DNA of 64,000 bases, taken from assembly GCA_963575745.1 (NCBI GenBank), contig CAUYUJ010000126.1, positions 1 to 64,000 of the forward strand. The letters are read 5' to 3'. The notes below the pieces were generated by a model that was not told the DNA's origin, searched no databases, and was given only the letters and a program-made list of their open reading frames with translations. Positions within the stretch are counted from its first letter, which is position 1. Each line of letters starts with the position of its first letter. This stretch comes from Prorocentrum cordatum. Lineage: Eukaryota. Made by a program: the position numbers and the translations under genes. Below, piece after piece: positions 9,367-53,072 of this stretch.

Positions 9367-9466
9367 NNNNNNNNNNNNNNNNNNNNNNNNNNNNNNNNNN
9401 NNNNNNNNNNNNNNNNNNNNNNNNNNNNNNNNNNNNNNNNNNNNNNNNNNNNNNNNNNNNNNNNNN
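9367..9466. other. Assembly gap (100 N)
   Basis: Run of exactly 100 N. Confidence 1.
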
Positions 9467-10608
9467 CTTCTGATCGCCCTTATCCTCCTCCTCCTCCCCC
9501 TCATCATCACCATCATCATCATCATCATCACCACCACCATCACCATCACCATCGTCAAGACCGCCACCATCATCGTCATCATCAGCATCATCAATATCAA
9601 CATCAACATCATCATCCGCCTATTCCTCCTCCTCCTCCTGCTCATTCCTCCCTCCCCACCCTCATCATCCTCCTCCTCTTCCGCCTCCGACTCCTCCTCC
9701 ATCCCCCCCCCGCCCCTTTGGGGTACGACGGCCTCCCCTGCCCCTTGTTCCTCTGTATGCTGCCCCGCTTCCATGATCACCTCTACTCGCCTGGGCGTCG
9801 TTTCTGGATGGGCTGGTGGGGATACTTTTTTGTTCGGCGGCCCGCAAGGAAAAGTCCAGAGGGCGTGTCAGAAGGCAATGGGGCGCAATGCCAGATAATT
9901 AGTGAAGGCCAGGCCACGACTGGAGGGAGCCGCCAAGAGGGCGCCAACCCACACACAAGCAACATGCATAACCGGGCAGCAAGCCAGAGTGACTGACTGG
10001 TGGGGATACGCGAAGCGTCAAGAATTCCTTCTGGTGGTCAGGGCTGAAGTAGGTGGGAACATCATAACCATAGAGGATTGAGACATACGACTGTATCAGC
10101 GCTGGCGGTAATCACTATCCACTGAAAGAAGGCTGAGAGCACACTGGTAGCAACGAGGGGCAATGAAAACATCGAAGGCGAAATGGGGGCGTTGAGGATA
10201 ACTCGCTGGCCCAACGGGCCGACGGCCTACTAGAATCACCTGTATCAGGGTCAGAGTGCTTGTGTATTCTATCAGTTCGCGCGCGCGAGGGGACCCTCTG
10301 TAGTTAGGTTTCCCTTTTCCCGTTGGGCGTTGGTGGTTGAAAGGGGTTATTATTCGAACCTCCTTCTGACCCTTCGGGAAAAGGCGTAGGCCCTCAAGAC
10401 GGCCCAGGGAGAGCCCAAGGCGTTCCTAAGAGAGCCCCACAGGCTTCCAACATGGGTCCAAGAGGCCCATGATAGCCCCACGAGACCTCCAAGAGGCTCC
10501 CCGCGCGTGACTGCATGCTGCTACACATCCCACGTCTCTGATCGGGGCAACTCATGACAACTCGCCTGGTGATTGCTTTTGGACGGACTGGTGGGGAGAT
10601 GCGAAGCG

Positions 10609-13600
10609 TCAAGAAGACGGGGGTGTCCTCTGGTGAGCCATCAGACGGAATTTCGCCATGACAGCCGACGCGCTGTCAGATGGGTTTACACCCTCACTGC
10701 TGTTCATCGATGAGGCATCGCATTCGGGATGCAGATCCTCAGCGATTGCGGATAGATCCTGACTGTAATGAGCCCTGGCACGGGTAGTGTAACAATGCCT
10801 CCGCGAAATCACCACATCCTTCAAGCACAGCGTGGCTGGTAACGAAATTGCACCTGTGTCGCTCTCCTCAGGATTTTCGGCTATGAGGAAAGCTCGCTTT
10901 GCTATGACTTTCATTGCTGGTGCTGGTGGGATGACAAGCTCAACATGTTCAAGATACTTTGAACAAACCCCAGGCTCGACATTGCTGTTCACTGCGTCAA
11001 TGATCCACTCCTCGACCTGGTCTCGCGCAAAACGTGGTAACCAACGTACCAGCCGCCCCTGACGAGGCAACAAGTGACGGCTGCAACCGGCGTCGCTAAT
11101 GAGGAAGCTCGGCTCGCCAGCATCGAACGAAATGTGCAACTCATCTACCGCCTCTGCCGAACTCTGCCATGCGCCACTGCCGGTCGCGTCGTGCTGCATC
11201 GGCGCGCGCCCGCCCTCGCCCACCGCCGCCGGCTGTGCTTGCGCATCCTCTTGGAAAGCTGGCGAGGGAAAGAGCAGGCGATCCACTTCTCGGCCCTCCA
11301 GACTCGAGCACCCGCGGTCGACCAGCCTTGAGGGGGCCCAAGGACACACAAATAAAGACACACAAGTAACAGGATTCCCCACATTTTTCAATATTTTTGT
11401 TGGATTTTCGTCTTCCTCCCCACTTCCCATATTTCCCCATGTTTTCTGGGGAATCGACGATTCATTGTGTCTGCGTGGGTTTTCCCCTCCCGAGGCCTGG
11501 CGTCCGAGGGGCCCGGCCCCAGGGTGCCCGCGGCCTCCTCGGCGGGAGCCCTCTTGGCCATCCTTACCTTGATGGGCCTGTTTTCCACCACCACCACCAC
11601 CATCAGTTGGAGGAAGGAGGAGGACGAGGACGAGGAGGACGAAGAGGAGGAGGACGAAGAGGAGGAGGACGAAGAGGAGGAGGAGGAGGAGGAGGAGGAG
11701 GAGGTAGAGGTGGAGGAGGAGGACCCCCTCCCCCTCCAACTTATGGTGGTGGTGGTGGTGGTGGAAAACAGGGCCGTCCTCACCTCGCCGACCCTCTGGA
11801 AGCTGACGTGCACGTCCGCCCCCGTGGCCCGGTAGGGCACCAGGCGCGCGTCGAACTCCAGCGGCTGCCGCCCATTGCCCGGGTGTTGCTAGAAGTGCCC
11901 CTGGCCCAAGGTGCCCCCAGCTTTTCGCTCCCCTTTGGAGCCCCTGGGGTCCTCTGGGCCTCGTGAGGGGTGCCCTGGAGGCCGCCTGGGCCACCCCGAG
12001 AATCCTGGGGGTACCTTGGGCCAGGGGTACTTCTAGCAACACCCGAATCGCCGAGAGCCTGGGTGAAGGTGGCCAGCACCGGCTCTGCCACGTCCCACTG
12101 GCTGACGTCGTACAGGCGCGCGACCTTCCAGCGGTCCCCCGGGCCGACGGCGTCCAGTATCTGCGTTCCCCGCAGGTCTGCGCCGAAGAGAAGCTGGAGA
12201 CTATCGCTGACATGTGAGATGGTTCGTGCTGGGCGAAAGGGGGGGGTAGCAAAGGGGGGGGGTTGAGAATCAGCTCACGTATAGCTGACTTTCCCGGCGC
12301 CTCCCGGCGCCAGAGGCGGCCATGTATCGAGGAATGGGCCCCTCGGTGGGGCCGAAAACCAGCTACGTGCAGCAAATTTCGTACCCCCCCCTTCCCCTAT
12401 CCCCCCCTTTTGTCCGGCCCGAATGGTTCCCACCTGCCTCCTCACCGTGCAGTAGCCATCAGTCGCTCTGTCGAGCAGAGTCTGCATGGCGCCCAGCTGC
12501 TCCCTCAGCTCGTGGAAATACAATGCCAAGAGCCACTCGAACAGAGTCATCACGATCGAGACCATGCCTACCTGGCAGCTGACCTCAAACGCAGAGCTCC
12601 CAGAGACCAGACCACGACAAAGCAACATACAGCAAGCAGCGTAACATGTGACCAACAGAGAATGAAAGCCGGCAGCATGGCACAGAACTACTCTGCACGT
12701 CAAGGCTGCGGGCCAGAGAATATCATAGGCAGAAGCTCCCGTATGGCTTTGTTGCCAAGTTGCCAAACTCAACAGAAGCACAAGAAACGAATACACCAAT
12801 ACTACTGCATCCGACTTCAGCGTCGTCACGGGAAGGAGCACTAACAAGATTGCCATAACATATTCGCACACGTAGTAAGCAACAATAATACGCCAGGTCC
12901 CACCCGCCACCGTGCCTCTGGGCACGGAGTGGGCGTGCCATCAGGTCCTGCCCCTGATCCTCCAAGCCTCAGACCTCCATCCTGAGGAGTCTTTCCATGG
13001 CCCAGACTCGAAGTTCTCAAATTAGCAGGGGCTCCAAGACCCGCAAAGAGGGCCCCACCCTGAAACGGTCCAGGAGGGCCCCGAGCCGCCGAACCATCGC
13101 CCCAATACGCTCAAGATGGCCCGCAGACGAGCCAAGAGGCCTCCAAGACACCCCAGGAGGCCTCCAAGAGGCCTCCCAAGAGGGCCACAAGAGGCCCTTA
13201 ATTGTCCTTCGGTTTTTTTAAAGATGTTGGCGTTCTCACCTTGTCGGCTTCCCGACGCTCCAAGACGGTCCCAGAGGCCCTCAAGATCGCCCCAAAACGG
13301 CTCCATATCCCAAGACGGCCCAAGAGGGCCCAAAAACGAGGCCCAGATGGGGAACCCGAACGGACATTTCGAGCCCTCGGCGCCGAGGGGCCCCCATAAG
13401 GCCTCAAGAGGCGCTCAAGAGCCCCCGAGAGGCTCCAAGAGGCCCCCAAGAGGCCCCCAAAAGGCTCCCAAGAGGCTCCCAAGAGGCACCCAAACTGCTC
13501 CCAAGAGGCCCCCGAAGAGCGCTCCGAAGAGACCCGAACAAGCATCCGTGAGAACTCTAACCCACAACCCAAGCACGGTGGTGGGATGGCCCCAAGGCCA

Positions 13601-13832
13601 TTGGATGCTCTGGGGCTGACAGGGCGTAGACGACGTCCGCGATCAGACAACACGTCACAAAGATGCCGCAATACTTCCAGAGCCCGCGCCGGCTGATAGG
13701 AGAAGACAGATACTCTTTTGTCACAGTCGTTGCCCAAGATCGATACCAGAAGGAGTGCCAATCGACGCAGCAGCCAATGCCATCCACTAACAACCAGCGC
13801 CTCCGTGCTCCCAACAGGGGCTCCGTGTGCAT
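10609..13832 (-). CDS. Interrupted gene or retrocopy: multi-pass membrane protein with a downstream PAS-like segment
   Basis: Coding blocks: MHTEPLL...DVVYALSAPE (13832-~13608); hydrophobic WRIIVAYY...LLDRATDGYCTVRRQVGT (~12920-12423); ISHVSDSLQLLFGADLRG...FTQALGD (~12223-12047); GRQPLEFDARLVPY...FQRVGEVRT (11873-11775); then an open frame to the stop at 10609. The exact exon structure is unresolved, and the PAS-like call is an inference. Confidence 0.65.
11579..11770. mobile_element. MITE / introner-like element with internal (GAG)n tract
   Basis: TIR TGTTTTCCACCACCACC...AGTTGGAGG / CCTCCAACT...GGTGGTGGAAAACA, with TSD GGGCC at 11574-11578 and 11771-11775. Confidence 0.88.
11879..12046. mobile_element. 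MITE, (T/C)CG...CGA termini, 5-bp TSD
   Basis: ~40-bp TIR CCGGGTGTTGCTAGAAGTGCCCCTGGCCCAAGGTGCCCCCAG / CTGGGGGTACCTTGGGCCAGGGGTACTTCTAGCAACACCCGA. TSD is ATTGC/ATCGC (1 mismatch). Confidence 0.88.
12224..12422. mobile_element. MITE, TCG...CGA termini, 5-bp TSD
   Basis: Imperfect G-run/C-run TIRs (TCGTGCTGGGCGAAAGGGG... / ...CCCCTTTTGTCCGGCCCGA), with TSD ATGGT at 12219-12223 and 12423-12427. Confidence 0.8.
13025..13606 (+). mobile_element. Dispersed CCAAGA(G/C)GGCC-rich non-autonomous repeat
   Basis: Highly similar copy at ~21830-22335 (shared GAACGGACATTTCGAGCCCTCGG and GAGCGCTCCGAAGAGACCCGAACAAGCATCC). Fragments at ~2290-2390 and ~10395-10500. Confidence 0.8.
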
Positions 13833-13909
13833 TTCTGCGGTGCCCGTCTCCACTGCGAGGCCCGCGCCCCCGTCAGGAGACGGGCTCCTGGTGGCGTTCC
13901 GCAGCCGGC

Positions 13910-13930
13910 CTTGAGCGAAAAGGCCACGGG
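13910..13930 (-). other. Relict dinoflagellate spliced leader
   Basis: Minus strand CCCGTGGCCTTTTCGCTCAAG vs DCCGTAGCCATTTTGGCTCAAG, ~80 nt upstream of the ATG at 13832 and in the same orientation. Confidence 0.72.
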
Positions 13931-14368
13931 TGACTTTTGCCGCAGGCGGCGGAACACAGACACCCCTGCTGTGAGTGAAGAACACACGAAACGAAGGACA
14001 TGGACTTCACTCCAAGCGTTTTCTTAAGCAGTCGTAGAAGTAAACAATTACAAACGTTCTATGACAAATAGGAGCTCCAAGAAAACGCACACTGTCCTGT
14101 CAAGATTCTTGATTTTTGTTCAGCGAAGTCTGGAGTCCATGAACGTTGAGATGGTTTCTTACGGTTCCTGATGGGTGTGCCGCATCAACCACCCTTCGGG
14201 AGATAAGGAGACTGGGGGCGGCGATGAGTGCAGTTTTCGTTTTGCTGTGCAGTTGGCGTCGGATTGAGTTCGCGATCTATTATATGTATGTGTGTATATA
14301 TATACGCATGTATGTATGTACATATATGTATATAAATATGTATGCGTATATATATATATACATATATC

Positions 14369-14408
<40 letters not shown>

Positions 14409-14516
14409 TATCGATGTCCGAGCTGTCTATCGATCTCTGCCTGCCGATCGCACTACCAATCTATAGATCGATCTAGCTATCTACCTACGAAAGTCGCTAT
14501 CTATAATATACGTATG

Positions 14517-15066
14517 CATTCCTAACCTTCGTGGCCGAGGAAACTACAGTCTGACCCACATCCTGAGACATGCCAGAGCTCTCGAGGGCATCCATCGCTC
14601 CCTTGCTGGGACCCTAGGCGACCACACGCCACGCATTGATCTGAAAAACAAGTTTGCACGAACGCACATGCCAAAACGAGTCCGCAAGTGCGAACTCAAA
14701 ACGCTACCTCGAAACAGTTGCCACAGAAAATGTGAGATGTGCCTGCAGGGGCAGGTCGCATAAAGTTGGGTGGAGGGAACGCAGGGGGAGCAGAAGCAAC
14801 TTGAGCATATATGAGCGATGGATCGCCACAGACCTGGCCACGACACACGCTGCAAAGAGACACCAGTGATGGCTGCAATCCATACATTCCTAACCTTCGT
14901 GGATCCTGAGACCTGCCAGAGCTCTAGTGGGCCTCCATCGCTCTTTTTCCTGGGACCGTAGGCGACCAGGCAACGCGCATTGATCTGAAAGAATCAGTTT
15001 GCACGAGCGCATCTGCCAATGCGAGTCCGCGAGCGCGAACTCAAAACATTATCTCGAAACACTTGC
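14517..15066 (-). repeat. B1-A2-B2 split direct repeat block of the YR retrotransposon
   Basis: CATTCCTAACCTTCGTGG...CGAAACA(G/C)TTGC occurs at 14517 and 14885. AACTTGAGCATATATGAGCGATGGATCGCC...GCTGCAAT occurs at 14798 and 21269. Confidence 0.92.
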
Positions 15067-20826: not shown

Positions 20827-23800
20827 GCCGCAACCTCCTCACGAGTCGCTGGACCCTGCAAGGCTGCAGCACCTGAAGACCCGCGGCCGCCGAGCTTCGC
20901 GAAAAGGAAGCCCAAAATGAACATGACTAGACCCAAGCTGACCGAGATCTCCAGGGACAGCGCCCGCCTGCTCGAAGGCGGGCCCTCAAGGGGTGCGTTT
21001 CCACCCACACACACACAGTCTGGGCAGAGAGCTGCCGCCGGGCACGAACACGCCAGCGCTGCAGGGCACGAAGCAGGACGTCCCACGGCCTCTCGGACGA
21101 TCTCGAACACGGGATCGCGGATCCCCCGCCGCTGGAGCAGCGGGGCAGTTGCACTCGCACCTGGTGGGAGCAACCGCGTCTCTAGTCACAGTGTATGCGA
21201 AGTGGGCGGCCGAACTCCACGGGAGGAACCACTCGAGCAGATGCTGCTGACCTCGCTCAGCAGGAAAAAACTTGAGCATATATGAGCGATGGATCGCCAC
21301 ACACCTGGCCACGACGCACGCTGCAAAGAGACATCAGTGACTGCTGCAATAGATGTCTATCGCGCGATCTTTCGGTCTCGCAACTGATGTGCCGATCTCG
21401 CCATCAGTCAACCTAATGTCCCACAATGCATCTGTATCACGCTATCATAAAATCTTGTGTTGCATCCTCGGGGGACCTTGTCTGTCCCGTCGCGGCCCTG
21501 TCCGTGTCGAATCCGTGTCGAATCCATGTCGGACGCGTCGGATCCGTGTCGAATCCGCGTCGAATCCGCGTCGAATCCACGCCAAATCCGCGTCGAATTC
21601 GCATCGAGCACGCGTCGGGCCCCCCAAAAGACACCAACTTTTGGGACAGGCGAGGTCCCCCGAAGATGCAACAGAATAGATCGTCAAACGACCAGCCTCA
21701 CCTTCGCCTCCTTCCCGGAGCCCCAGTCCTCAGTCCCGAGGGGCCTTCCAGGGGTCCGAACTCCGAGATCTACCGGGGGGCTTGTCTGTGTGCCCTCGGG
21801 GCTCCGGCGCACTCCCCGGCGGGAAGTCCTGCGGCTCCAGGGGGGCTCCACGAGGCCTCCAAGACGGCGCGAGAGGGCCCCGATACGCCCCGAGATCGGC
21901 CCAGGACGCCCAAGATGGCCCCAAGACGACCCAAGAGGCCTCCCAGACGGCCCCAGAGGCCTCCAAGAGGCCCACGAGGCCCCCACGATGGCCCCAGCAC
22001 GGCCCCCAAGAGGGCACCACGACGGCCCCAGAGGGTCCCAAGACGGCCCAAGAGGCGCCCAAGACGGCCCAAGAGGACGCAAAGACGGCCCCAAGAGGGG
22101 GCCCAGATGGGGACCCCGAACGGACATTTCGAGCCCTCGGCCCCGAGGGGCCTCCAGGAGGCGCTCAAGAGGCCCCAAAGAGGACCCATGAGGCACCCAA
22201 GAGGCCCCAAGAGGCCCTCAAGAGACCCCCAAGAGGCTCCCAAGAGGCCCCCAAGAGGCTCCCAAGAGGCCTCCGAGAGCGCTCCGAAGAGACCCGAACA
22301 AGCATCCCTGAGAACTCTGGCCCACAACCCAGGCACGTAGACCAGCTTGGCATCGGGACGGCAAGCGAGGGTTCTTTCTGTGGGGGCGCGAGGTCGCTGG
22401 CTAGTGGCTTGGAGCTCTGCTGGTGTGAAGGCTCTGGCACGACATGCATACATCGAACACAAATCCCTGCGAAAATCAGTGAGCATTGCACTTCCGGGGC
22501 CTCCCTGGGCCCACCCGGGGGCGCTCGGCCCTGACTTCCCCGCGGCGCTGGCTTGGGCAGACCAACGACCTCGGGCGCCGACCCGCGGAGCTCACGCGGC
22601 TTGAGCAGGGACCGACCGTACCAGCATTCCTATAGTCATACCACGAAGTGTTCTTAGAACCCAAAAATGTTCTAAGAACAAATAATGTTCTTAGAGCACA
22701 AGCCCGATGTGTTAAAACAAGACAATCCTAGCCAGACATGTTCTAAGGACATTTCGTGGGAACCACAACAAATTCTTAGAACTTTGTTTGGTGGGGCTAT
22801 AGGCGAGCCGGGACGCTTCGCCACTGCTTGAGCGGCGGGCCGCCCGAGGGACTGCTGCCAGTCTTCGCCGTGCCGGCTGGGCGCGCGGTCGCTGCTGCCC
22901 CGCGAGATCGCGCCGAGCTTCCCTGGGCTCGCTCGCGCGGAAGGCGGCCGCTGCCACGCAGCGCAGCGACCCGAAGACTGCGCGCGGCGTGTGCGCGCAG
23001 CCTCGGCGCGGCCAGGCCTGCCCAGAACGCCTCGGCGCGCACGAGCTCGATGGCTCGCTAACGACGTCCCCCGCCGAGGCAACTGGCGAGGCGGGAGGAG
23101 CACGTCGCATCCGTGCTCCAAGGCGAGCTGGCCTCGCGAGGCCAACTGCACTGCGGGGCGGAACCGGCGCCGCTTCCAGTGTCCCTCGACGCGGGCGTCG
23201 TGTGGACTGCGGTCGCCACTGACGCGCTGGGCAAGAACAATCCTCCTCCTCCTCCTCCTCCTCCTCCTCCTCCTCCTCCTCCTCCTCCTCCTCCTCCTCC
23301 TAAGGGCGTTGGACCAGATGGCATATTCCCGCGGAACTGCTGCAGGCCGGCGGAACCTCCTGAGCCGTCGCGTGCTTCGAGATCAGTTGCTGCGCGGCCG
23401 CCACCCGTCAGTGGCCCGTCAAATGGTTCGGCGACATCGTCCACGTGTGGAAAAGGAAGGGCGACCCGGCTGTGTGCGACAACAGCCGTGGTTTGCTCTT
23501 GGCTGACCACGCGTCGAAAGCCCTCGCCTCGCTCGCAAACGAGGACATGGGCGACGTGTACACTCGCCACGTGCTGTCACACCAGTGCGGCGCGGTCGCA
23601 GGGCGTGGCGCAGACGTCGCCACCCACATCGCCCGTTCGCTCCTCGCCATTGCGTTCGACAAGATCGTCCGAGAATTGGTCATGGGATGGGGGTCGCGTC
23701 CGCTGGAAGAGACCGTGCCGCATCTCATCGCGCTCGGAGTCGACCTGGCCGCTGCGACGTGGATCGTGGACGACGTTGCGAGCCGCGGATGCGTCTTCGA

Positions 23801-27270: not shown

Positions 27271-28396
27271 GAACGACGGGGGGAACCTGGCACTACTTAC
27301 CTACTTGTAGCCGGTCAAACCCCTCTCATCGAGGAACCAGCTGAAGTTCGGCAGCACCGGCTGGGCAAGGGAGGGCCGAGCGCCGCGGCCATGAGCGAGG
27401 CCAAGCGGAACAGGGCCTGGATGCTCTTCCAGCTATGGGGGGCCGAACTCACACCTACGCAGCTCGAGGTCACTTGCGACCCTGGAGAGGGCTCGGCCAA
27501 GAGTGTGCAGCACAAGCGGATGATGAGCACACAGTACGTCTGCAGCAAGTGTGGCAAGCAGCTCTGCCTTGCCAAGTCTCGCATCTACCCTTGCAAGCGG
27601 CGCCCAGAGGGAGTGACCTTCTAGATGGGCCTGGCCAGACTCGCGGGGCAAGAAGTTGCCCAGAAGCGAGTCGCCGACTCCGCGAAGAGGGCGAAGCAGC
27701 ACTGGAAGAAAGCCCACAAGGCCCCAAGCTGCTACGCCGACTACTGCAGTCGCTACGGTCGAAAGCAGTACGACCGCAAGGAAGAGCTACGTCGTGAAGC
27801 CAAGGGTCTGCCGACGGTGCTCGAGCGAGCGCCGAGGCCCGCGGCCCACGCTCCCTCGACCCCGCCTTGGCGGGATCCGCTCCTGCGCGGAGGCCGCCCC
27901 TCGCAGGGGCCGACGCCGGCAAACGAGAGGCAAACAAACGAAAGCGAGCTCGGCGGCGCCGCGGAGGTCCTCATCCTCTGATGGGCACTGGTTCACGTCC
28001 GCGCCCATCGGGCCTGTCGAGCTTGACATCACCCAGGAACGCACGATATAATTCAAAGACTGCTGTTGCATATCTGAATTCAGACGCTGCATGTGCAGCG
28101 GGTACTGACCATGTGCACCAAATTTTTGATGCAGGCTCTGCGCACCCTTCGAGTCCGACACCGAAGGCTGTACGTTCTCGGGCTTCGACTACTGATTCAA
28201 CCTTGTCAAGGCCTATGTCTTCCTGTCAGTACAGCTTCGGCCTCAGGTACTGCGGCTACTGGTTCATCCTTGTCACTGCCGACGTTTACCTGTACTGCCT
28301 CGGCCACAGGTCCCTCGGCGTTAGAACGCACCTCGGAGTCAGAACGCACTGGCAAGGGATCCGTCTCTGGGTCCCCCTCTGTCAGTTCTCGAAATC

Positions 28397-29596
28397 ATGG
28401 CGTACAGAGCGCAAGTCCTGACCTCGGGTGCTCCTGACCTCGGGTGCTCCTCGAGCCCGCGTCCGGCACTGTCGCCACACGCTGGACCTCAGGCGAAGCG
28501 TCTGAAGCAGGAAAGAGAACGCACTGGCAAGGGATCCGTCTCTGAGTCCCCCTCTGTCAGTTCCCGAAGTTTTGGCGTACAGAGCGCACGTCCTGGTTGC
28601 GACGGGCTTCTGCCGACGTCGCCTCCCCAGGCTCAGTCGCAACATGCTGGACAGCCACGTGCTGGAAGAAGTTTAAGTTCTGATCTTGGGTGCTTCTCGA
28701 GCCCGAGCCAGGCGCAGTCGCCACGTGCTGGACCTCCGTCGAAGCGACCGAAGCAGGAGGAGGAGCTCGACTTTGCCGATCTTTGCGACACGAGCGCTCC
28801 AGACTCAGATTCCACCAAGCTCAATGTATGCACCATCAATGTCACGAGCATTACCAAGGCCAGGCTGATCACCATCCTGGAGACTCTGCCCGTATCAACC
28901 GCGACTGTGTTATGCCTCCAGGAGATACGGCACCACGAAATTCGACCACGCTGGATTTTTCAAAACGCTCTGAGATTCGGGTGGAGCATTGCCTGCTCAG
29001 ACCCACCACCGACACAAGCACGTGGGACAGTTCGACAAGGAGGATGTGCTATACTTTGGCGCCGCTTCCTGGGCAAGATTACCGTCCTCCGCCACAAAGG
29101 CCTCGGCCATCGTATGGTCGGGATACGCAGTGCTGCCGCTACGTTCCTGTCTGTCTACGGCCCTGTGGACGCGGACAGAGGATGGTTCCAACACGCCTTT
29201 GAATACTTCTCATCTTTGGGACACATGGGCCACCCAGTCTACGTGATTGGCGATCTCAATTGGCGCCCTCTTTACTCGGCCGTGACCCCGCGGTGGCACA
29301 TGAGGACGGTGCGACTGGGCACAGAGACCTCCACTACGGCAGCAGGCACTTGTCCAACGAGAGCCTTGCTGTGGGGAGAAGGAGCAGCTCCAGAGCAGAC
29401 TACGACGCACTTGTCACCTGGCACTCCTCATCATGCTCTGGTGGGGTACGTGCTTAACATCACACATGTCAATCCAACGCATACCCGTCTGAAGCGCACA
29501 GCCTCTTATACACCAGAGCGCGCCTCCAACGACGGGGAGGAAGCGTTGCTTCAAGAATTACTTGACCAAGAGGTGGGCCCGCCCCGCGGTACTTGA
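28397..29596 (+). CDS. AP-type (EEP) endonuclease of the nested LINE
   Basis: NVTS, LQE, GG, SVYGP, GDLN motifs in the expected order. The C-terminal catalytic motifs are degenerate (PTR, HH). Confidence 0.82.
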   Translation: MAYRAQVLTSGAPDLGCSSSPRPALSPHAGPQAKRLKQERERTGKGSVSESPSVSSRSFGVQSARPGCDGLLPTSPPQAQSQHAGQPRAGRSLSSDLGCFSSPSQAQSPRAGPPSKRPKQEEELDFADLCDTSAPDSDSTKLNVCTINVTSITKARLITILETLPVSTATVLCLQEIRHHEIRPRWIFQNALRFGWSIACSDPPPTQARGTVRQGGCAILWRRFLGKITVLRHKGLGHRMVGIRSAAATFLSVYGPVDADRGWFQHAFEYFSSLGHMGHPVYVIGDLNWRPLYSAVTPRWHMRTVRLGTETSTTAAGTCPTRALLWGEGAAPEQTTTHLSPGTPHHALVGYVLNITHVNPTHTRLKRTASYTPERASNDGEEALLQELLDQEVGPPRGT

Positions 29597-47655: not shown

Positions 47656-50600
47656 CTAGCCGTCTTCAAACGCCAAGGCTGCGGCAACCCTTTGCTTTTC
47701 CCGCAGCCTGGCCCCAAGCACTCGGGCTTCAGTTTCATTCAAACCGAACGCCTGCAGACAGTCTGCCGAGCAGATGGGGTCAGGTACAAATCCAGGGACC
47801 ACCGCACTTCGCTGGCCCTTTCGCTGGACCCCTGGGCCGCCGTCCAAACCCCCAAAGACCTCCCGAACCCGCTCCCCAGGCGACTTCCAGGGGCCAAGCT
47901 TAAAGGCGCGATTGGGATGTTTCGACCTTAAAACAGCGCGGGTGTTTTTGCGGCCAGGGTCGATCAGACTCGCTTGGGCCCCAGGGCAGACCGACTTGAG
48001 GCCTCTAGCTCCGACCGAGACCGTCGCGTACCCTCCACACGTGGAGCAAAAAAATATTGGAGCGAGATCCTCACCGTGCAGCGGGAACTCCAACAGCTGG
48101 TGGCCGCCCTGTTTCCAGGGGGCCTGGTGAGCACCCCTGGCCAGGACGGCCAGGTCGGGGCCCAGGGGCACCTCAGGCAGGTCCTGGGAGGGGTCCGCTG
48201 GGGCAGGAGGGGGGGCAGCAGCAGCAGCAGATCGTCCCTCCGCCGCCTCCCTCCTCCTGAGCTCCTCCAGGTCCTCCTCCAGGCCTTCGCCGCCCTCGAA
48301 CGAAATGAGGGTGAACCCCTGGGCGCCCACATTATCAAACGCGCCTAGGTCGGAATAATGAACCTCGGCCCTGGTAATGAAAGAGGTGACCTGACGGGCC
48401 ATAAACAGCATGCCTTTGACCACTAGCATATCCTGAGGGTCTTGCCTGCTGAGATCGGCGCCTTGCTTGGCCAAACGGTCGGCGGCGTCGTTGCCCGTTT
48501 TTTTTTTTCAAACAGGCTGATCTTACCTTCCCGAACGTCATCCATGCTCGAATGGGCCTTGACCTTGCAGCAGCTCACCCCAGACAAATCGTTTTTAGCA
48601 TACAGCTCCTTCCACAGATGCATACGTGTGTTGGCTGGACTCTCGGCCCAGCTTCTATGGCGACAGCACTCGAGAGTTCCTTTGCAGTCAGAGTAAAGCG
48701 TGAACGTGCCAGTTAAAAAACTCGTGGCCATGAAAACTGCAAAATCTTCGCCATCTCGGGCGACTTGGCCAGGCAGAGTGGCTGGCGGGACGGCCCCAAA
48801 CCAGCCCGTGATCCAGCGGCGCTCGCTGTCATAAATGGCAACTCCCCAGCCTGCCGAACGCAAAGCGGGGAACATTCCATCGTGACCCGAGCCGTCACAG
48901 AAGACGTGAGCGTTATCCACCGCCAAACACGCACCCACTCCTTCAGCCCTGAACTCCCACGCTGGGTCCCAGGGCCTCCGCGCGAGCAGCTGACAGGGGT
49001 CAGGGAGGATGCCTCGGGCGAATCGCTCTTGCAGTTCAACTGGGCAGCGAGCAAGACGAGCAGCCGCTGCCTGGAGCTCAGGCGGGAGATGGTCTCGCCG
49101 CCAAGCTGCACGGGCAGGGCACTCGAAGTGCCTGTGAAAAAGGGCGCCTCTGGCCCCGTGACAGATGAGGCAGTCTGCCTCGAGCTGGGGGTCGTGCTGG
49201 TGAAGCCTGTGCTGGCACCAGTGCGAGCCCATAACAAGGCCTCTCAAGGCCCTCTGCTCCCGCACCCCCCAAGCTCCACCCGTGCCCGACTCCGCCCCGT
49301 CATCGTCGTCTTGCTGCCGTCTGCAGCGCAGCCTCTCGTTGAGGGGGCGCCAAAAAAAAATCGCCTAACCAACCCTTGCCTCCGCTGATTTTGCTGGGGC
49401 CTCGGTGATCAGACAGGCGACGTGCAGCGAAGCGAGCACGGCGAGCAACGAAGGCAGGCGAGACAGAGGCCAGGGACCAAACCTGCCCTGAGGCCTCGCA
49501 CAGTGTCCAGGGGTCGGTGAAAGTCAGACCTGCTCGCCCCGCAGTGAGGATTAGAGCCGCCACAGGGTCCTTGACCTGCGCCCATGGGCGGGCTTTTGAC
49601 GCAATGGCCTGCCCTTGGGTAAAAAGAAATCGAAGCACCGAGGGGGACAGGCGATTGTCTCTGAGGATCTGCACATATGTTTTCAGAGCATCGGCTGTGA
49701 CCAAGACCAATGGGTCTCGGGTCCAGCCGCCACGCGCGCACATGGAAGCTAAGTCCAGGGAGCAGCCGCGAGGCAACCGCCCTTCAGCGCGCAGCGCAGC
49801 TACCCTTAGTTGATTAAGTTTGCCGTCAGGGAGCCCTTGGATGTTGGCTCCCCATAGAGCCTTGGCAGAAACTCCAGCCCGAAAAACAAAGCCCGCTGGG
49901 GCTCCAGCGTTTCTGAGGGCCACGATTTTGCCGACCTTGGCTTGGGCGGCGCAGAAACGATCGTGATGTGTGCTTACTCGCCTACGGCTGCCGTCGGTCG
50001 CGTCACCTCCTAGATCCCGATGGACCTGGGCGCGCACCGACTCTGGGAGGCCACAATCGAGGAGGATCCCGTCCGCCACCTCCCCCGAGGAAGACAGGAG
50101 GCCGAGCTTATTACAGGCGATGGGCAGCCCCTTTTTTTTTCTTAGGTCTGCCGTTATCATGCGGAACGCTTGCCCGAGCTCCCTGCGAACTACTTCATTG
50201 CCTCCAACCGCGTGCAGCGAGACATCGTCGATTACATTTTTTTATCCAGACGACTGGGCTGGCCGACGCCGCGCGCCGCAAACAAGCTAAGAGGAGCAAG
50301 CGGGAAAGAGTGGTGGCCCCAGAGCACCCTGCAACTACCGTGCCGTTCGGCACGAGGACTCTGCTGACCGCGCCTTGCCACGAGACCCTACGCGGTGCAC
50401 GATACATCGAACAGTAGCTCCTCAAGAGGGCTTCCGAAAAACCTGCATGCTTGGCGGCTTCTCGCAACTCCTGGTGCGAGATGTGTTCATAGAACTTGCG
50501 CAGATCTATGAAAAGCGTGCAAGAGGCCCAGCCAGGCTGGGAACGGGCATAGGCTGCAAGAGCGTTGTGGACCCAAGCGCTCTTGTCACAGGCTGTGCTG

Positions 50601-53072
50601 GTGCTCATACCCCAAAAGAAACGCTCATCAGCGCGACGCTCCCACTCAGAGCACAGCCTGTGCCTAATTCTGCTCCAGACCCTCGCAAAGAGGGGAAGCA
50701 GCCATATCGGTCGGACTCCTCCCGAAGGCTTGTCGAGAAAAACGATCAGCACTAGCCACATCTGATCCACCCTCGGATTCCTTTCCCAAGCAGTGAGGAT
50801 GGCCGCAAAGGCCTCAACAAGCGGCCGAGGGAGCTGCAACAGGAGCCGCGGGCTGAACGCATCCCAACCCAAAGCCGTGGTCGGGCTGAAAGAAGCCGCC
50901 GCTTCTAGAACCTGTTCAGCAGAGATCGGTTCGAGCGAATCCTCCACCGTCCAGTCAAGGGGATGCTGCTCCCCCTCGCGCTCGGCGCTGGTCCAAATGG
51001 GAATCCACTCCTTGAGGGTCTGCTCTAGAGCGGCCTGGCCTACCAGAATCGAAAGCCGATTATGCGGGAGGTCCTGGTCATCGGCCTCTTCGAAAACTGG
51101 CAGGGGCGGAGGGGCTGGGCCTTTGCTGAACCTGTGAGCGACACGACCACCTCCAGCCACCGACGACTTCGCCCACGACTTCCACTTCTGTCGGCCTTCA
51201 GCCGCCTCCTGCTTCACCCTGCTGACGACCTCCGCTTGGACCGCGTCCACTAGCGGCCCTCTGGTCGCGCTGTCGGCCAGCTGCGTAAAAAAGTTAGCCA
51301 GGGTAAGTCCACGGAGCTGTTCCTGCCCCGCCTCCGCGAACAAAGTTGAGAGGGGCGATGCAATCCTGACCAGCTGAGCCTGAACCTCTGGTTTAGTAGC
51401 TTTTAAAAACTGGATGGACAGGCGGCGCAGCGAAAGCCACTTCTGAGTGAGCAGATTAGAACGCTGGTAGAGCTCTTGGCCCCAAGCTGCTCGCAGAGGG
51501 ACGAGCTGTATCTGACAGCCCTTGTGTCGGCCGAAAAACTTGGGGTCCGTCACACCGTGGACCTCAGCGAGGGCCCTTTCCGCAGAGGAGAACCATCTGG
51601 ACGCAGCGTCCAGAGGATCCAGGCCCAAAAAAATTGGGCCGTCCCAGGATCCCGAAAAAAACCATCTGCATCCTCTCATCATCATCCTGGGGCAGAGGGA
51701 AACGCTTGGGCACAATGCGCTTCCAAACCTTGGCCTGGCCAGCCAGCGCTCGCATGCGGAGGGCCACCGCAGAGTGCGGCCCTACTGGGGTGTCGGCCAC
51801 TCCAGCGCACCAGTCGACGTGGTAGTCCAGGCACCCGCTGATGACGAAAAAGTCGTAGCAGTGGTCGTGACAGGTCGCACCTTCTGGCCGCAGGATGCTG
51901 GCCCCGAGGTGCCCAGTCCACTGGGGCTCCCTGAGCTCTTCAGCGTCAATATTCCAATCACCGCCGATGACGAAAGGGATGTTAGCCTCTGCTACCACCG
52001 CGCTGACCTGCTCCAAGAAATCGAGATTGGCTCCGCTGAGCCCCAAAAGTAGTATGCCCGTATACCGAGACTACCAGCACCTCCACGTTGTAGGCCAAAG
52101 CGACTCTGCAAGCCGCCACGCGCTCGCCGAGGAACCGATGCTGGTATCCTGCTGCGCCAAATTGACTGCGGACCAGCACCGCCGTGCCTGCTGACGATTC
52201 TCTGTCCGTTATCCCTGTGCTGGCCGCTGGCTGAAAAGAAGAAGCGTACCCCGCCTGATGGGCCCAGGCCCTGGGGGCTTGGATCTGATGTTGAAGCAAA
52301 CGGTGCTCTTGGACCAGAACGGCATCATACACAGTGCCCTTGACCAGCTTCGACCATTCCAAAAACTTAAGACCAGTCGACCAAGCGTTCGAGTTGTAGG
52401 TGACCAGAGAGAAATGTGAAAGAGCCTTGCTAACTCCTGGGGGAGGCGGCGGCCAACCGCGAGCAGAGTGGGAGGGGTCGCTCTCGTCGGGGGCTGCATC
52501 CCGCGCATCCGCGGCGCCGACGAGAGGCTGGGCACGACCAAAGGGATCGCCCACCCGCATGTCTGCGGCATTGGTCAAGAGCCCGCTACCCGCGCCTCCC
52601 TTTAGGGTTTGCCGTTGTGGCTCCCCAAGGACGCCAGTGCGCCCCAAAAACGGTGGCCACCGCCTCTGCCCCTTTAGGGTCTGCCCCACGGGCTCCCCAA
52701 GGACACCTTGGTGCCCCGATGCCATCCTTCGCCAATCGTAAGAGTTGTAGGTGACCTGAGAGAAAAGTGAAAGAGCCTTGCTCACTCCTGGGGGAGGCGG
52801 CGGCCAACCGTGAGCAGCGTGGGAGGGGTCGCTCTCGTCGGGGGCTGCATCCCGCGCATCCGCGGCGCCGACGAGAGGCTGGGCACGACCAAAGGGATCG
52901 CCCACCCGCATGTCTGCGGCATTGGTCAAGAGCCCGCTACCCGCGCCTCCCTTTAGGGTTTGCCATTGTGGCTCCCCAAGGACGCCAGTGCGCCCCAAAA
53001 ACGGTGGCCACCGCCTCTGTCCCTTTAGGGTCTGCCCCTCGGGCTCCCCAAGGACACCTTGGTGCCCCGATG
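47656..53072 (-). CDS. LINE ORF2: APE endonuclease, reverse transcriptase, RNase H (broken by frameshifts at homopolymer runs)
   Basis: VTYNSN, VQEH, SAG, SVYG, GGDWN, YDFF, PHSAV; ALGWD, KPSGGVRPI, FIDLRKFYEHI, AGC, NVIDD (~50221-50238); FCDGSG, GWGV, YSDC, KVKAH, ADRLAKQG. Confidence 0.9.

What the first reader, a model, noticed from the sequence alone, without database searches (positions are those of the whole stretch)
11574..12427. Three unrelated MITEs within 850 bp of coding sequence, each precisely removable to restore the frame (introner candidates)
Seen: removing each element plus one 5-bp TSD gives ...TVRRQVGT-ISHVSDSL..., ...FTQALGD-GRQPLEFD... and ...GEVRTA-HQG... in one continuous frame. 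For 11579-11770 a GC donor (at 11774, in the TSD) and an AG acceptor (at 11578; A from the TIR, G from the TSD) excise exactly 197 nt, which is element plus TSD. The other two lack exactly placed canonical sites. Established: dinoflagellates use GC/GA donors, and TIR-bearing introners are known in the group. Inference: this is intron gain caught in progress, possibly including non-canonical hairpin-defined splicing. Alternatively it is simply a dead retrocopy absorbing insertions.
Basis: partly seen in the sequence, partly recalled or inferred. Interest (0 to 1): 0.78.

Follow-up and report, generated by a model that had tools for sequence, protein, structure and literature searches.

The report
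Transposon-derived introns in a dinoflagellate gene
A dinoflagellate gene for a membrane protein is interrupted by five small mobile-element-like segments; two are ordinary introns made by transposon insertion, and it is still open whether the other three, which lack normal splice signals, are cut out.

Summary
The three inverted-repeat elements are real. They lie in a minus-strand gene whose only relatives are 579-659 aa proteins of Prorocentrum cordatum. Five segments interrupt the gene, not three. Removing 703, 204, 173, 216 and 170 nt gives one 643-aa frame colinear with paralog P0003 (489 of 626 identical, same C-terminus).

Paralogs read GEVR|MAKR, which needs a 216-nt GT-AG intron: a 208-nt element plus an 8-bp AGGTRAGG duplication.

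A fourth element (170 nt, GC-AG, AGGC duplication) is absent from zero-mismatch contigs in two of four runs, and near-identical contigs skip it in the other two, one of them polyA RNA. These two match published dinoflagellate introners.

The elements at 11880-12046 and 12226-12422 have no canonical splice pair at the frame-restoring register. The contigs shown to skip them are 90-94% identical paralogs, so splicing at this locus is unproven.

A 703-nt segment with non-canonical ends is skipped in zero-mismatch contigs.

Verdict: mostly a new example of known introners. Non-canonical removal remains an open, more interesting possibility.

The parts
10612..14006 (-). Host gene. After removal of the five segments it reads as one open 643-aa frame. 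The probable start is M at 13832 (MHTEPLL, as at the start of P0005); the stop codon is at 10609-10611.
   Evidence: colinear with P0003 (489 of 626 identical), same C-terminus; the only relatives are unnamed P. cordatum proteins.
12902..13604 (-). I1: a 703-nt segment absent from RNA-type contigs. The junction is CAT|CC...GT|GGG, non-canonical on either strand, with only 1 nt of junction ambiguity. The interior holds 11-nt tandem repeats and a 20-nt inverted repeat at 80%.
   Evidence: contigs of 687 and 686 nt in X1 and X5 with 0 other letters join 12901 to 13605; X9 has 3+1 other letters. X10 (polyA RNA) shows what I read as the same junction with one changed letter; the tool listed it as 12902 to 13608 with 2 letters between.; a 75% copy of the interior lies at 21873-22337.
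12226..12422 (-). E3: a 197-nt inverted-repeat element flanked by a perfect 7-bp duplication (plus strand ATGGTTC, 12219-12225 and 12423-12429). Exact removal is 204 nt. Read through, it gives a stop at 12275-12277.
   Evidence: the joint 12218 to 12423 (skips 204, 7 ambiguous letters) is present in all 4 runs. Contigs that match from 12231 on carry unlike flanks in X1 and X10, so the family has copies elsewhere; hairpin fold z -7.5.
11880..12046 (-). E2: a 167-nt element with 41-nt inverted repeats at 95%. Its 6-bp duplication is ATTGCC (11874-11879) and ATCGCC (12047-12052), with one C-to-T change at a CpG. Exact removal is 173 nt.
   Evidence: the joint 11873 to 12048, with one letter C between, is present in all 4 runs (paralog type). 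In X10, five contigs that match from 11880 on carry unlike flanks; fold z -6.9.
11568..11783 (-). E1 intron: 216 nt, GAG|GTGAGG ... CAAG|GT. It consists of a 208-nt inverted-repeat element (11570-11777, GAG-repeat core) plus one copy of an 8-bp duplication, AGGTGAGG (11785-11778) and AGGTAAGG (11569-11562).
   Evidence: The paralogs read GEVR|MAKR. RNA support is indirect only: the tool masked 11577-11772, and the matching contigs stop at 11565.
11327..11496 (-). E0 intron: 170 nt, CAG|GC ... AAG|GC. It consists of a 166-nt element plus a 4-bp duplication AGGC (11498-11495 and 11328-11325).
   Evidence: the joint 11324 to 11495 is present in 4 of 4 runs, with 0 other letters in the listed 269-nt piece in X1 and X5. 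Contigs that match part of the element (about 11329-11369) carry unlike flanks.; weak fold, z -1.7.

Best explanation
This is a live or very recently live gene of a Prorocentrum cordatum-type dinoflagellate. It belongs to a lineage-restricted multi-copy family of membrane proteins, possibly with a PAS-like domain. Non-autonomous DNA-transposon-like elements have split its coding sequence five times. Two of the insertions (E0 with a 4-bp AGGC duplication, E1 with an 8-bp AGGTRAGG duplication) became ordinary spliceosomal introns. The duplicated target site supplies ...AG|G at both ends, so removing the element plus one duplicate restores the codons exactly. This is the published introner mechanism. 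E2 and E3 are the same kind of insertion, with inverted repeats, a 6-7-bp duplication and copies elsewhere, but they landed in targets without AGG. Exact removal therefore has no G[T/C/A]...AG pair. I think it slightly more likely than not that they, like the 703-nt segment I1, are removed from the mRNA at non-canonical borders. The long hairpin that places the two exon ends side by side may assist. Shown: the anatomy, colinearity with the paralogs, and skipping of E0 and I1 in zero-mismatch contigs. Inferred: splicing of E1. Not shown: removal of E2 and E3 at this locus, and any mechanism for it.
For: Removing the five segments gives a 643-aa frame with no stop or frameshift, colinear with P0003 to the last residues. 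Each junction falls inside motifs shared with four paralogs: VGT|ISHV, LG(D/E)|GRQ, GEVR|MAKR, SDAR. E0 and I1 are skipped in contigs with 0 other letters in X1 and X5. Near-identical contigs with the same joints occur in X9 and in X10, a polyA RNA library. All four runs have zero depth over 13944-15000 and 10324-10504, as expected of RNA. The window protein is as close to the outgroup paralogs as its sister P0003 is: 0.742/0.738/0.638 against 0.740/0.752/0.643. It has 24 private changes against 15-19 in P0003-P0005, spread evenly along the protein. That argues against long neutral decay. The mismatches in the E1 and E2 duplications suggest these insertions are not brand new. In X1, alleles specific to the window are present on both sides of E3, at 12138, 12468 and 12522 (about 26-27 depth each). 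The interiors of E3 and E2 are covered there only by divergent copies (tables 3 and 4). E2 and E3 fold into near-complete hairpins, z -6.9 and -7.5. Published precedent, read as passages: introners with duplications of 4, 5 and 8 nt, and a class that takes both splice sites from an AGGH duplication. Also inverted-repeat plus direct-repeat non-canonical introns in Amoebophrya, repeated intron boundaries with AGG, and introner elements in 2.4% of P. cordatum introns.
Against: Every listed contig that bridges the E2 or E3 site has 8-19 other letters in about 150-170 nt, so it comes from a paralog (table 8). No joint of window type was listed for E2: the window would give 11874 to 12048, whereas the contigs carry a C there. 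X5, X9 and X10 hold no contig with the window's letter at 12138, 12468 or 12522. Absence of the window's E2 and E3 interiors in X1 is weak evidence, because contig building drops rare variants. In X5, about 19-24 depth does agree with the window inside E3, at 12262 and 12280, which could be retention. Of the 29 best-supported exon differences shown, 6 are synonymous and 23 are not; the random expectation is 24.6% synonymous. That looks unconstrained, although 141 further differences were not shown and the sample is not random. No database protein is identical to this locus's exons. The locus may be unannotated, or the window may come from another assembly. The E1 joint was masked by the tool. 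Splicing at non-canonical borders is not documented in core dinoflagellates in the papers I read.
Confidence: 0.5

Rival explanations
1. E0, E1 and perhaps I1 are real introns, but E2 and E3 are simply disabling MITE insertions in one member of a multi-copy family. The locus would be a young pseudogene, or it would yield only non-productive transcripts. All joined forms at the E2 and E3 sites would come from paralogs or from other strains' copies.
For: There is no canonical splice pair at the exact register. Read-through of E3 meets a stop at 12275-12277. The listed bridging contigs are paralogs. Three of four runs lack the window's alleles at 12138, 12468 and 12522. The shown differences are 6 synonymous to 23 non-synonymous. 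The window has E-to-G at a position invariant in four paralogs. No identical annotated protein exists. The family is redundant, with at least four annotated paralogs.
Against: The 1.9-kb frame is intact, and the window's amino-acid distances to the outgroup paralogs equal those of P0003. The E2 duplication has already mutated, so that insertion is not brand new. No contig runs from an exon of this locus into E2 or E3. I1 shows that a non-canonical junction does occur in mature-looking contigs of this same gene.
Confidence: 0.33
2. E2 and E3 are spliced by the normal spliceosome at nearby in-frame G[T/C/A]..AG pairs, giving a slightly altered protein. For E3 the pair would be a GA donor at 12429 (first base of the upstream duplication) and AG at 12229, 201 nt, turning VGT into VART. 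For E2 it would be a GC donor at 12037 and AG at 11865, 173 nt, turning GDGRQP into GDSGVP.
For: Such pairs exist: 18 in-frame pairs near E3 and 21 near E2. The E3 pair follows the published pattern in which the first bases of the duplication (GH) serve as the 5' site and an AG near the element's end as the 3' site. GA donors are reported as typical of young introns.
Against: Neither joint (12228 to 12430, or 11864 to 12038) was listed in any of the 4 runs. Both products change residues conserved in all four paralogs. With so many G[T/C/A] and AG sites in 60% G+C sequence, in-frame pairs are expected by chance.
Confidence: 0.12
3. The whole stretch is a dead retrocopy or a chance open frame that absorbs insertions.
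For: The region is repeat-rich, with LINE-type endonuclease and reverse-transcriptase fragments elsewhere in the window.
Against: A retrocopy has no introns. Here at least E0 is removed in zero-mismatch contigs. The frame is intact over 643 aa and colinear with four annotated proteins.
Confidence: 0.03

Closest known systems
Dinoflagellate introners / introner-like elements (Roy et al., bioRxiv 10.1101/2020.10.14.339549; the later Curr Biol 2023 version was seen only as a citation)
   Same: Non-autonomous elements with inverted repeats and target-site duplications of 4, 5 or 8 nt that create an intron on insertion. One class takes both splice sites from an AGGH duplication. GC and GA donors occur, and G follows the acceptor AG. 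E0 (AGGC) and E1 (AGGTRAGG) fit these features (passages read).
   Different: That work covered Symbiodinium and Polarella, not Prorocentrum. An 8-nt duplication in which both sites lie inside the duplicate as AG|GT was not among the classes in the passages I read: the 8-nt classes there are GHN6, with the AG carried by the element. E2 and E3 have 6-7-bp duplications without usable sites.
Introner elements reported in P. cordatum (Dougan et al. 2023, PMC10666404)
   Same: Probably the same species. Introns with inverted repeats of 8-20 nt and direct repeats of 3-5 nt near both ends were found in 2.4% of introns (passages and supplementary note).
   Different: Their gene models allowed only GT, GC or GA donors with AG acceptors, so borders like those of E2, E3 and I1 could not be called. 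I did not see their tables S1 and S2.
Non-canonical introns / introner elements of Amoebophrya (Farhat et al. 2021, PMC7789003)
   Same: Inverted repeats at both ends, short direct repeats overlapping the exon borders, a hairpin that brings the exon ends together, and no fixed border dinucleotides. E2 and E3 have this anatomy (passages).
   Different: Amoebophrya is an early-branching parasitic lineage. Its direct repeats are 3-5 nt; here they are 6-7 nt. RNA removal was shown there and is not shown here for E2 and E3.
Identical repeated intron boundaries in dinoflagellates (Mendez et al. 2015, PMC5032977)
   Same: A repeat of 2-11 bp at both ends of an intron, kept once in the mRNA, containing AGG. 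E0 and E1 fit (abstract and sections 11 and 15).
   Different: The repeats at E2 and E3 contain no AGG, and I1 has only 1 nt of repeat.

Membership tests
Introner (transposon-made spliceosomal intron) | Terminal inverted repeats and a target-site duplication | tested here: met
   E1: 35-nt arms at 91%, 8-bp duplication matching 7 of 8. E2: 41-nt arms at 95%, 6-bp duplication matching 5 of 6. E3: 41-nt arms at 78%, 7-bp duplication matching 7 of 7. E0: 4-bp duplication matching 4 of 4, weak arms. I1: 20-nt arms at 80%, no duplication.
Introner (transposon-made spliceosomal intron) | Many related copies in the genome, a good share of them as introns | tested here: inconclusive
   No genome is held. 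No second copy of E0-E3 lies in the window. Contigs that match E2, E3 and part of E0 continue into unlike flanks, which shows copies elsewhere, but what surrounds those copies is unknown.
Introner (transposon-made spliceosomal intron) | G[T/C/A]...AG splice sites placed so that removal restores the frame | tested here: met
   Met for E0 (GC..AG, 170 nt) and E1 (GT..AG, 216 nt). Not met for E2, E3 and I1 at the restoring register.
Introner (transposon-made spliceosomal intron) | Removed from the RNA of this locus | tested here: inconclusive
   E0 and I1 are skipped in contigs with 0 other letters. E1 was masked by the tool. For E2 and E3 only paralog contigs were seen to skip. All runs are stored as contigs; no raw reads were available.
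Introner (transposon-made spliceosomal intron) | Recent gain: homologous genes lack an intron at the site in their DNA | not testable with these tools
   Only paralog proteins and RNA-type contigs were available. Two metagenome scans found nothing.
Amoebophrya-type non-canonical introner | Non-canonical borders with inverted and direct repeats at the ends, and removal confirmed by RNA | tested here: inconclusive
   E2 and E3 have the anatomy. RNA removal at this locus is not shown. I1 has non-canonical borders and skipped contigs, but no direct repeat.

The most novel reading that the evidence does not exclude
A core, free-living dinoflagellate removes transposon-derived segments from mRNA at borders with no GT/GC/GA-AG signal. 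The borders would be set by the target-site duplication and the inverted-repeat hairpin (E2, E3) or by some other rule (I1). This would be the Amoebophrya kind of intron outside Amoebophrya. Gene-calling pipelines that allow only canonical borders cannot see it, which could explain why this intact gene has no identical annotated protein.
Probability: 0.3. Interest if true: 0.8.

Novelty: new member of a known kind. Interest (0 to 1): 0.55.

Why it matters
The secure part adds a clear single-gene example of introner-made introns in Prorocentrum. Both splice sites of each intron are supplied by an AGG-containing target duplication, including an 8-bp AGGTRAGG case. The same gene also holds sister insertions that landed in targets without AGG. 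That makes it a natural test of what happens to a transposon insertion in an exon when it does not bring or find splice sites: the gene dies, a near-cognate site is used, or a border-independent removal acts. If removal is real, many dinoflagellate gene models built with canonical-border rules would be incomplete. The unusual introns of Amoebophrya would then not be a parasite oddity.

Tried and rejected
- The whole genome is not held, so copies could not be counted genome-wide.
- E2 and E3 have no second copy in the window. E1 matches only GAG-type low-complexity repeats.
- Pfam found nothing for the window exons or for the four paralogs at E up to 1.
- AlphaFold on the 4-sequence alignment gave mean pLDDT 32.9, which is unusable, so no fold search was run.
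- The ESM Atlas points to PAS-domain clusters (score 0.98 to clusters with no common Pfam family; 0.87-0.92 to PAS families). This is a lead only.
- A metagenome scan with a 24-nt E2 arm pattern gave 0 matches.
- A metagenome scan with the family alignment gave 179 pattern matches, none confirmed by tblastn.
- Earlier-findings look-ups by place, sequence and words returned nothing.
- A canonical GT(13620)..AG(12918) pair of the same 703-nt length exists for I1. It is not the junction in the contigs, which match 13605|12901 with 0 other letters.
- My first guess of a GT donor at 11567 and of a 57-75-nt intron at 12556-12630 was dropped. 11495-11565 lies in the contigs, and the paralogs encode the 12556-12630 stretch. 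The 75-nt skip seen in all 4 runs, with only 30-41 letters on the short side, is left unexplained.
- A dN/dS estimate against paralogs could not be made, because no paralog DNA was available. The 6:23 count rests on 29 of 181 differences, the 'best supported' ones chosen by the tool.
- A window-wide direct-repeat listing gave only low-complexity trinucleotide arrays.

Full report
ANATOMY

The window is about 60% G+C, rich in trinucleotide repeats, and holds LINE-type fragments. In 11300-13700 the inverted-repeat search finds three elements:
- E2, with 41-nt arms at 11880-11920 and 12005-12045, 95% complementary.
- E1, with 35-nt arms at 11571-11605 and 11744-11778, 91% complementary.
- E3, with 41-nt arms at 12223-12263 and 12383-12423, 78% complementary.

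Under a strict filter the window holds 3 inverted-repeat pairs, against 0 in each of 10 dinucleotide shuffles. E2 is one of the three; E1 and E3 did not pass that filter. The elements share no similarity with one another, and E0-E3 have no second copy in the window.

THE HOST GENE

The flanking minus-strand reading frames match only unnamed proteins of Prorocentrum cordatum: P0003-P0006, 579-659 aa, 70-80% identical to the last exon. A full HMMER pass over 1.84 billion cluster representatives found 9 proteins, only one of them below 1e-30.

Pfam finds nothing, and the structure model was unusable. A protein-language-model look-up points to PAS-domain clusters, which is a lead only. No database protein is identical to the window's exons.

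FIVE INTERRUPTIONS, NOT THREE

The paralogs give the uninterrupted protein. Removing these five segments yields one 643-aa frame from 14006 to 10612:
- 12902-13604 (703 nt)
- 12221-12424 (204 nt)
- 11875-12047 (173 nt)
- 11568-11783 (216 nt)
- 11327-11496 (170 nt)

The frame has no stop or frameshift. It is 489 of 626 identical to P0003 and ends at the same C-terminus.

The paralogs read GEVR|MAKR, not GEVRTA-HQG.

The true insert is 216 nt. It is a 208-nt element (11570-11777) plus one copy of an 8-bp duplication, AGGTGAGG and AGGTAAGG. This gives a textbook GAG|GTGAGG donor and a CAAG|GT acceptor.

E0 (11327-11496) is the same design on a 4-bp AGGC duplication, CAG|GC...AAG|GC.

E3 has a perfect 7-bp duplication. 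E2 has a 6-bp duplication with one CpG transition. Neither has a G[T/C/A]..AG pair at any register that restores the protein. Other in-frame pairs lie nearby but change conserved residues.

RNA-TYPE EVIDENCE

Four runs from four studies were laid. All are stored as contigs. X10 is a polyA RNA library; the other three are RNA by guess. All four have zero depth over 13944-15000 and 10324-10504.

Joints seen in all four runs:
- 11324 to 11495, skipping E0, with 4 ambiguous letters.
- 11873 to 12048 with one letter C between, at the E2 site.
- 12218 to 12423, skipping 204 nt at E3, with 7 ambiguous letters.
- 12901 to 13605, skipping 703 nt. In X10 the tool lists 12902 to 13608 with two letters between, which I read as the same junction with one changed letter.

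Contigs with 0 other letters in X1 and X5 carry the E0 and I1 joints. A paralog that split off before the insertions should differ in several hundred exon bases. These contigs are therefore best read as transcripts of this locus or of a copy made after the insertions.

The I1 junction (CAT|CC...GT|GGG) is non-canonical on either strand and has only 1 nt of ambiguity.

For E1 the tool masked 11577-11772 as a repeat and dropped one joint in X10. The matching contigs stop at 11565 and go on for 72-81 unlike letters. That stop is what a GAG|GTAAGG product would give if the four shared letters AGGT were assigned to the upstream piece. This is my inference, not a result.

For E2 and E3, every bridging contig in table 8 has 8-19 other letters in about 150-170 nt, so it is a paralog transcript. 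These contigs show that the family's mRNAs are uninterrupted at those sites. They do not show that this locus is spliced, nor that the paralog genes lack introns there.

X5, X9 and X10 hold no contig with the window's letters at 12138, 12468 and 12522. X1 holds them at about 26-27 depth. In X1 the interiors of E2 and E3 are covered only by divergent family copies, which is weak evidence of removal because contig building drops rare variants. In X5, about 19-24 depth agrees with the window inside E3.

Contigs that match E2 (five in X10), E3 and part of E0 carry unlike flanks, so these families have copies elsewhere.

CONSTRAINT

The window protein is as close to the outgroup paralogs as its sister P0003 is: 0.742/0.738/0.638 against 0.740/0.752/0.643. 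It has 24 private changes against 15-19 in P0003-P0005, spread evenly along the protein. This argues against long neutral decay.

Against this, the 29 exon differences shown are 6 synonymous and 23 non-synonymous; chance would give 24.6% synonymous. They are the tool's 'best supported' 29 of 181, so they are not a fair sample. The two results pull in different directions, and I could not compute a proper dN/dS.

STRUCTURE

E2 and E3 fold into near-complete hairpins whose base lies within a few nucleotides of both exon ends (z -6.9 and -7.5). E1 folds likewise (z -3.6). E0 and I1 fold less strongly (z -1.7 and -3.4).

KNOWN WORK

- Introner elements are already reported in 2.4% of P. cordatum introns. 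The gene models there allowed only GT/GC/GA-AG borders.
- In Symbiodinium and Polarella, introner classes have 4-, 5- and 8-nt duplications. One class takes both splice sites from an AGGH duplication. E0 and E1 fit this.
- Repeated intron boundaries containing AGG are a general dinoflagellate feature.
- Non-canonical introns with inverted and direct repeats, removed from RNA, are described only in Amoebophrya.

My searches turned up no report of such removal in a core dinoflagellate. That is a limited search, not proof of absence.

VERDICT

E0 and E1 are new examples of a known kind of intron. For E2 and E3, three readings remain open:
- removal at non-canonical borders;
- recent disabling insertions in one copy of a redundant family;
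- use of near-cognate splice sites.

I1's non-canonical junction in zero-mismatch contigs keeps the more novel reading alive. Raw reads of the same strain would settle it.

Noticed in passing
window 12902-13604: A 703-nt segment of the same gene is skipped in zero-mismatch contigs at a junction with no GT/GC/GA-AG on either strand and only 1 nt of ambiguity. A canonical GT(13620)..AG(12918) pair of the same length lies 16 nt away but is not the junction seen. The interior holds 17 copies of an 11-nt repeat unit.
   Followed up: partly
window 21458-21673 and 21873-22337: Another candidate small inverted-repeat element: 31-nt arms at 90%, 216 nt long, with no clear duplication. It lies 200 nt from a 75% copy of the I1 interior.
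   Followed up: no
window 12556-12630: All four runs hold a contig that skips these 75 nt, with only 30-41 letters on the short side. The zero-mismatch contigs keep them, and the paralogs encode them. The minus-strand segment starts with GTATGT but does not end in AG. It may be an alternative or paralog-specific form.
   Followed up: no
window 12138, 12468, 12522: Three transitions separate the window from every contig of X5, X9 and X10, while the flanking exons match exactly in X5. Each changes a residue toward the state seen in paralogs: G to E, R to K, L to S. Strain polymorphism, a near-identical second copy or mRNA editing could explain this; I could not tell them apart.
   Followed up: partly
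window 28325-29593 (+) and 50198-51781 (-): Open frames with an endonuclease/exonuclease/phosphatase match (E 2.4e-08) and a weak reverse-transcriptase match (E 1.8e-05, below Pfam's cut-off). These are LINE-type remnants.
   Followed up: no
window 9367-9466: A run of 100 N (an assembly gap) lies about 1.1 kb beyond the stop codon of the gene.
   Followed up: no
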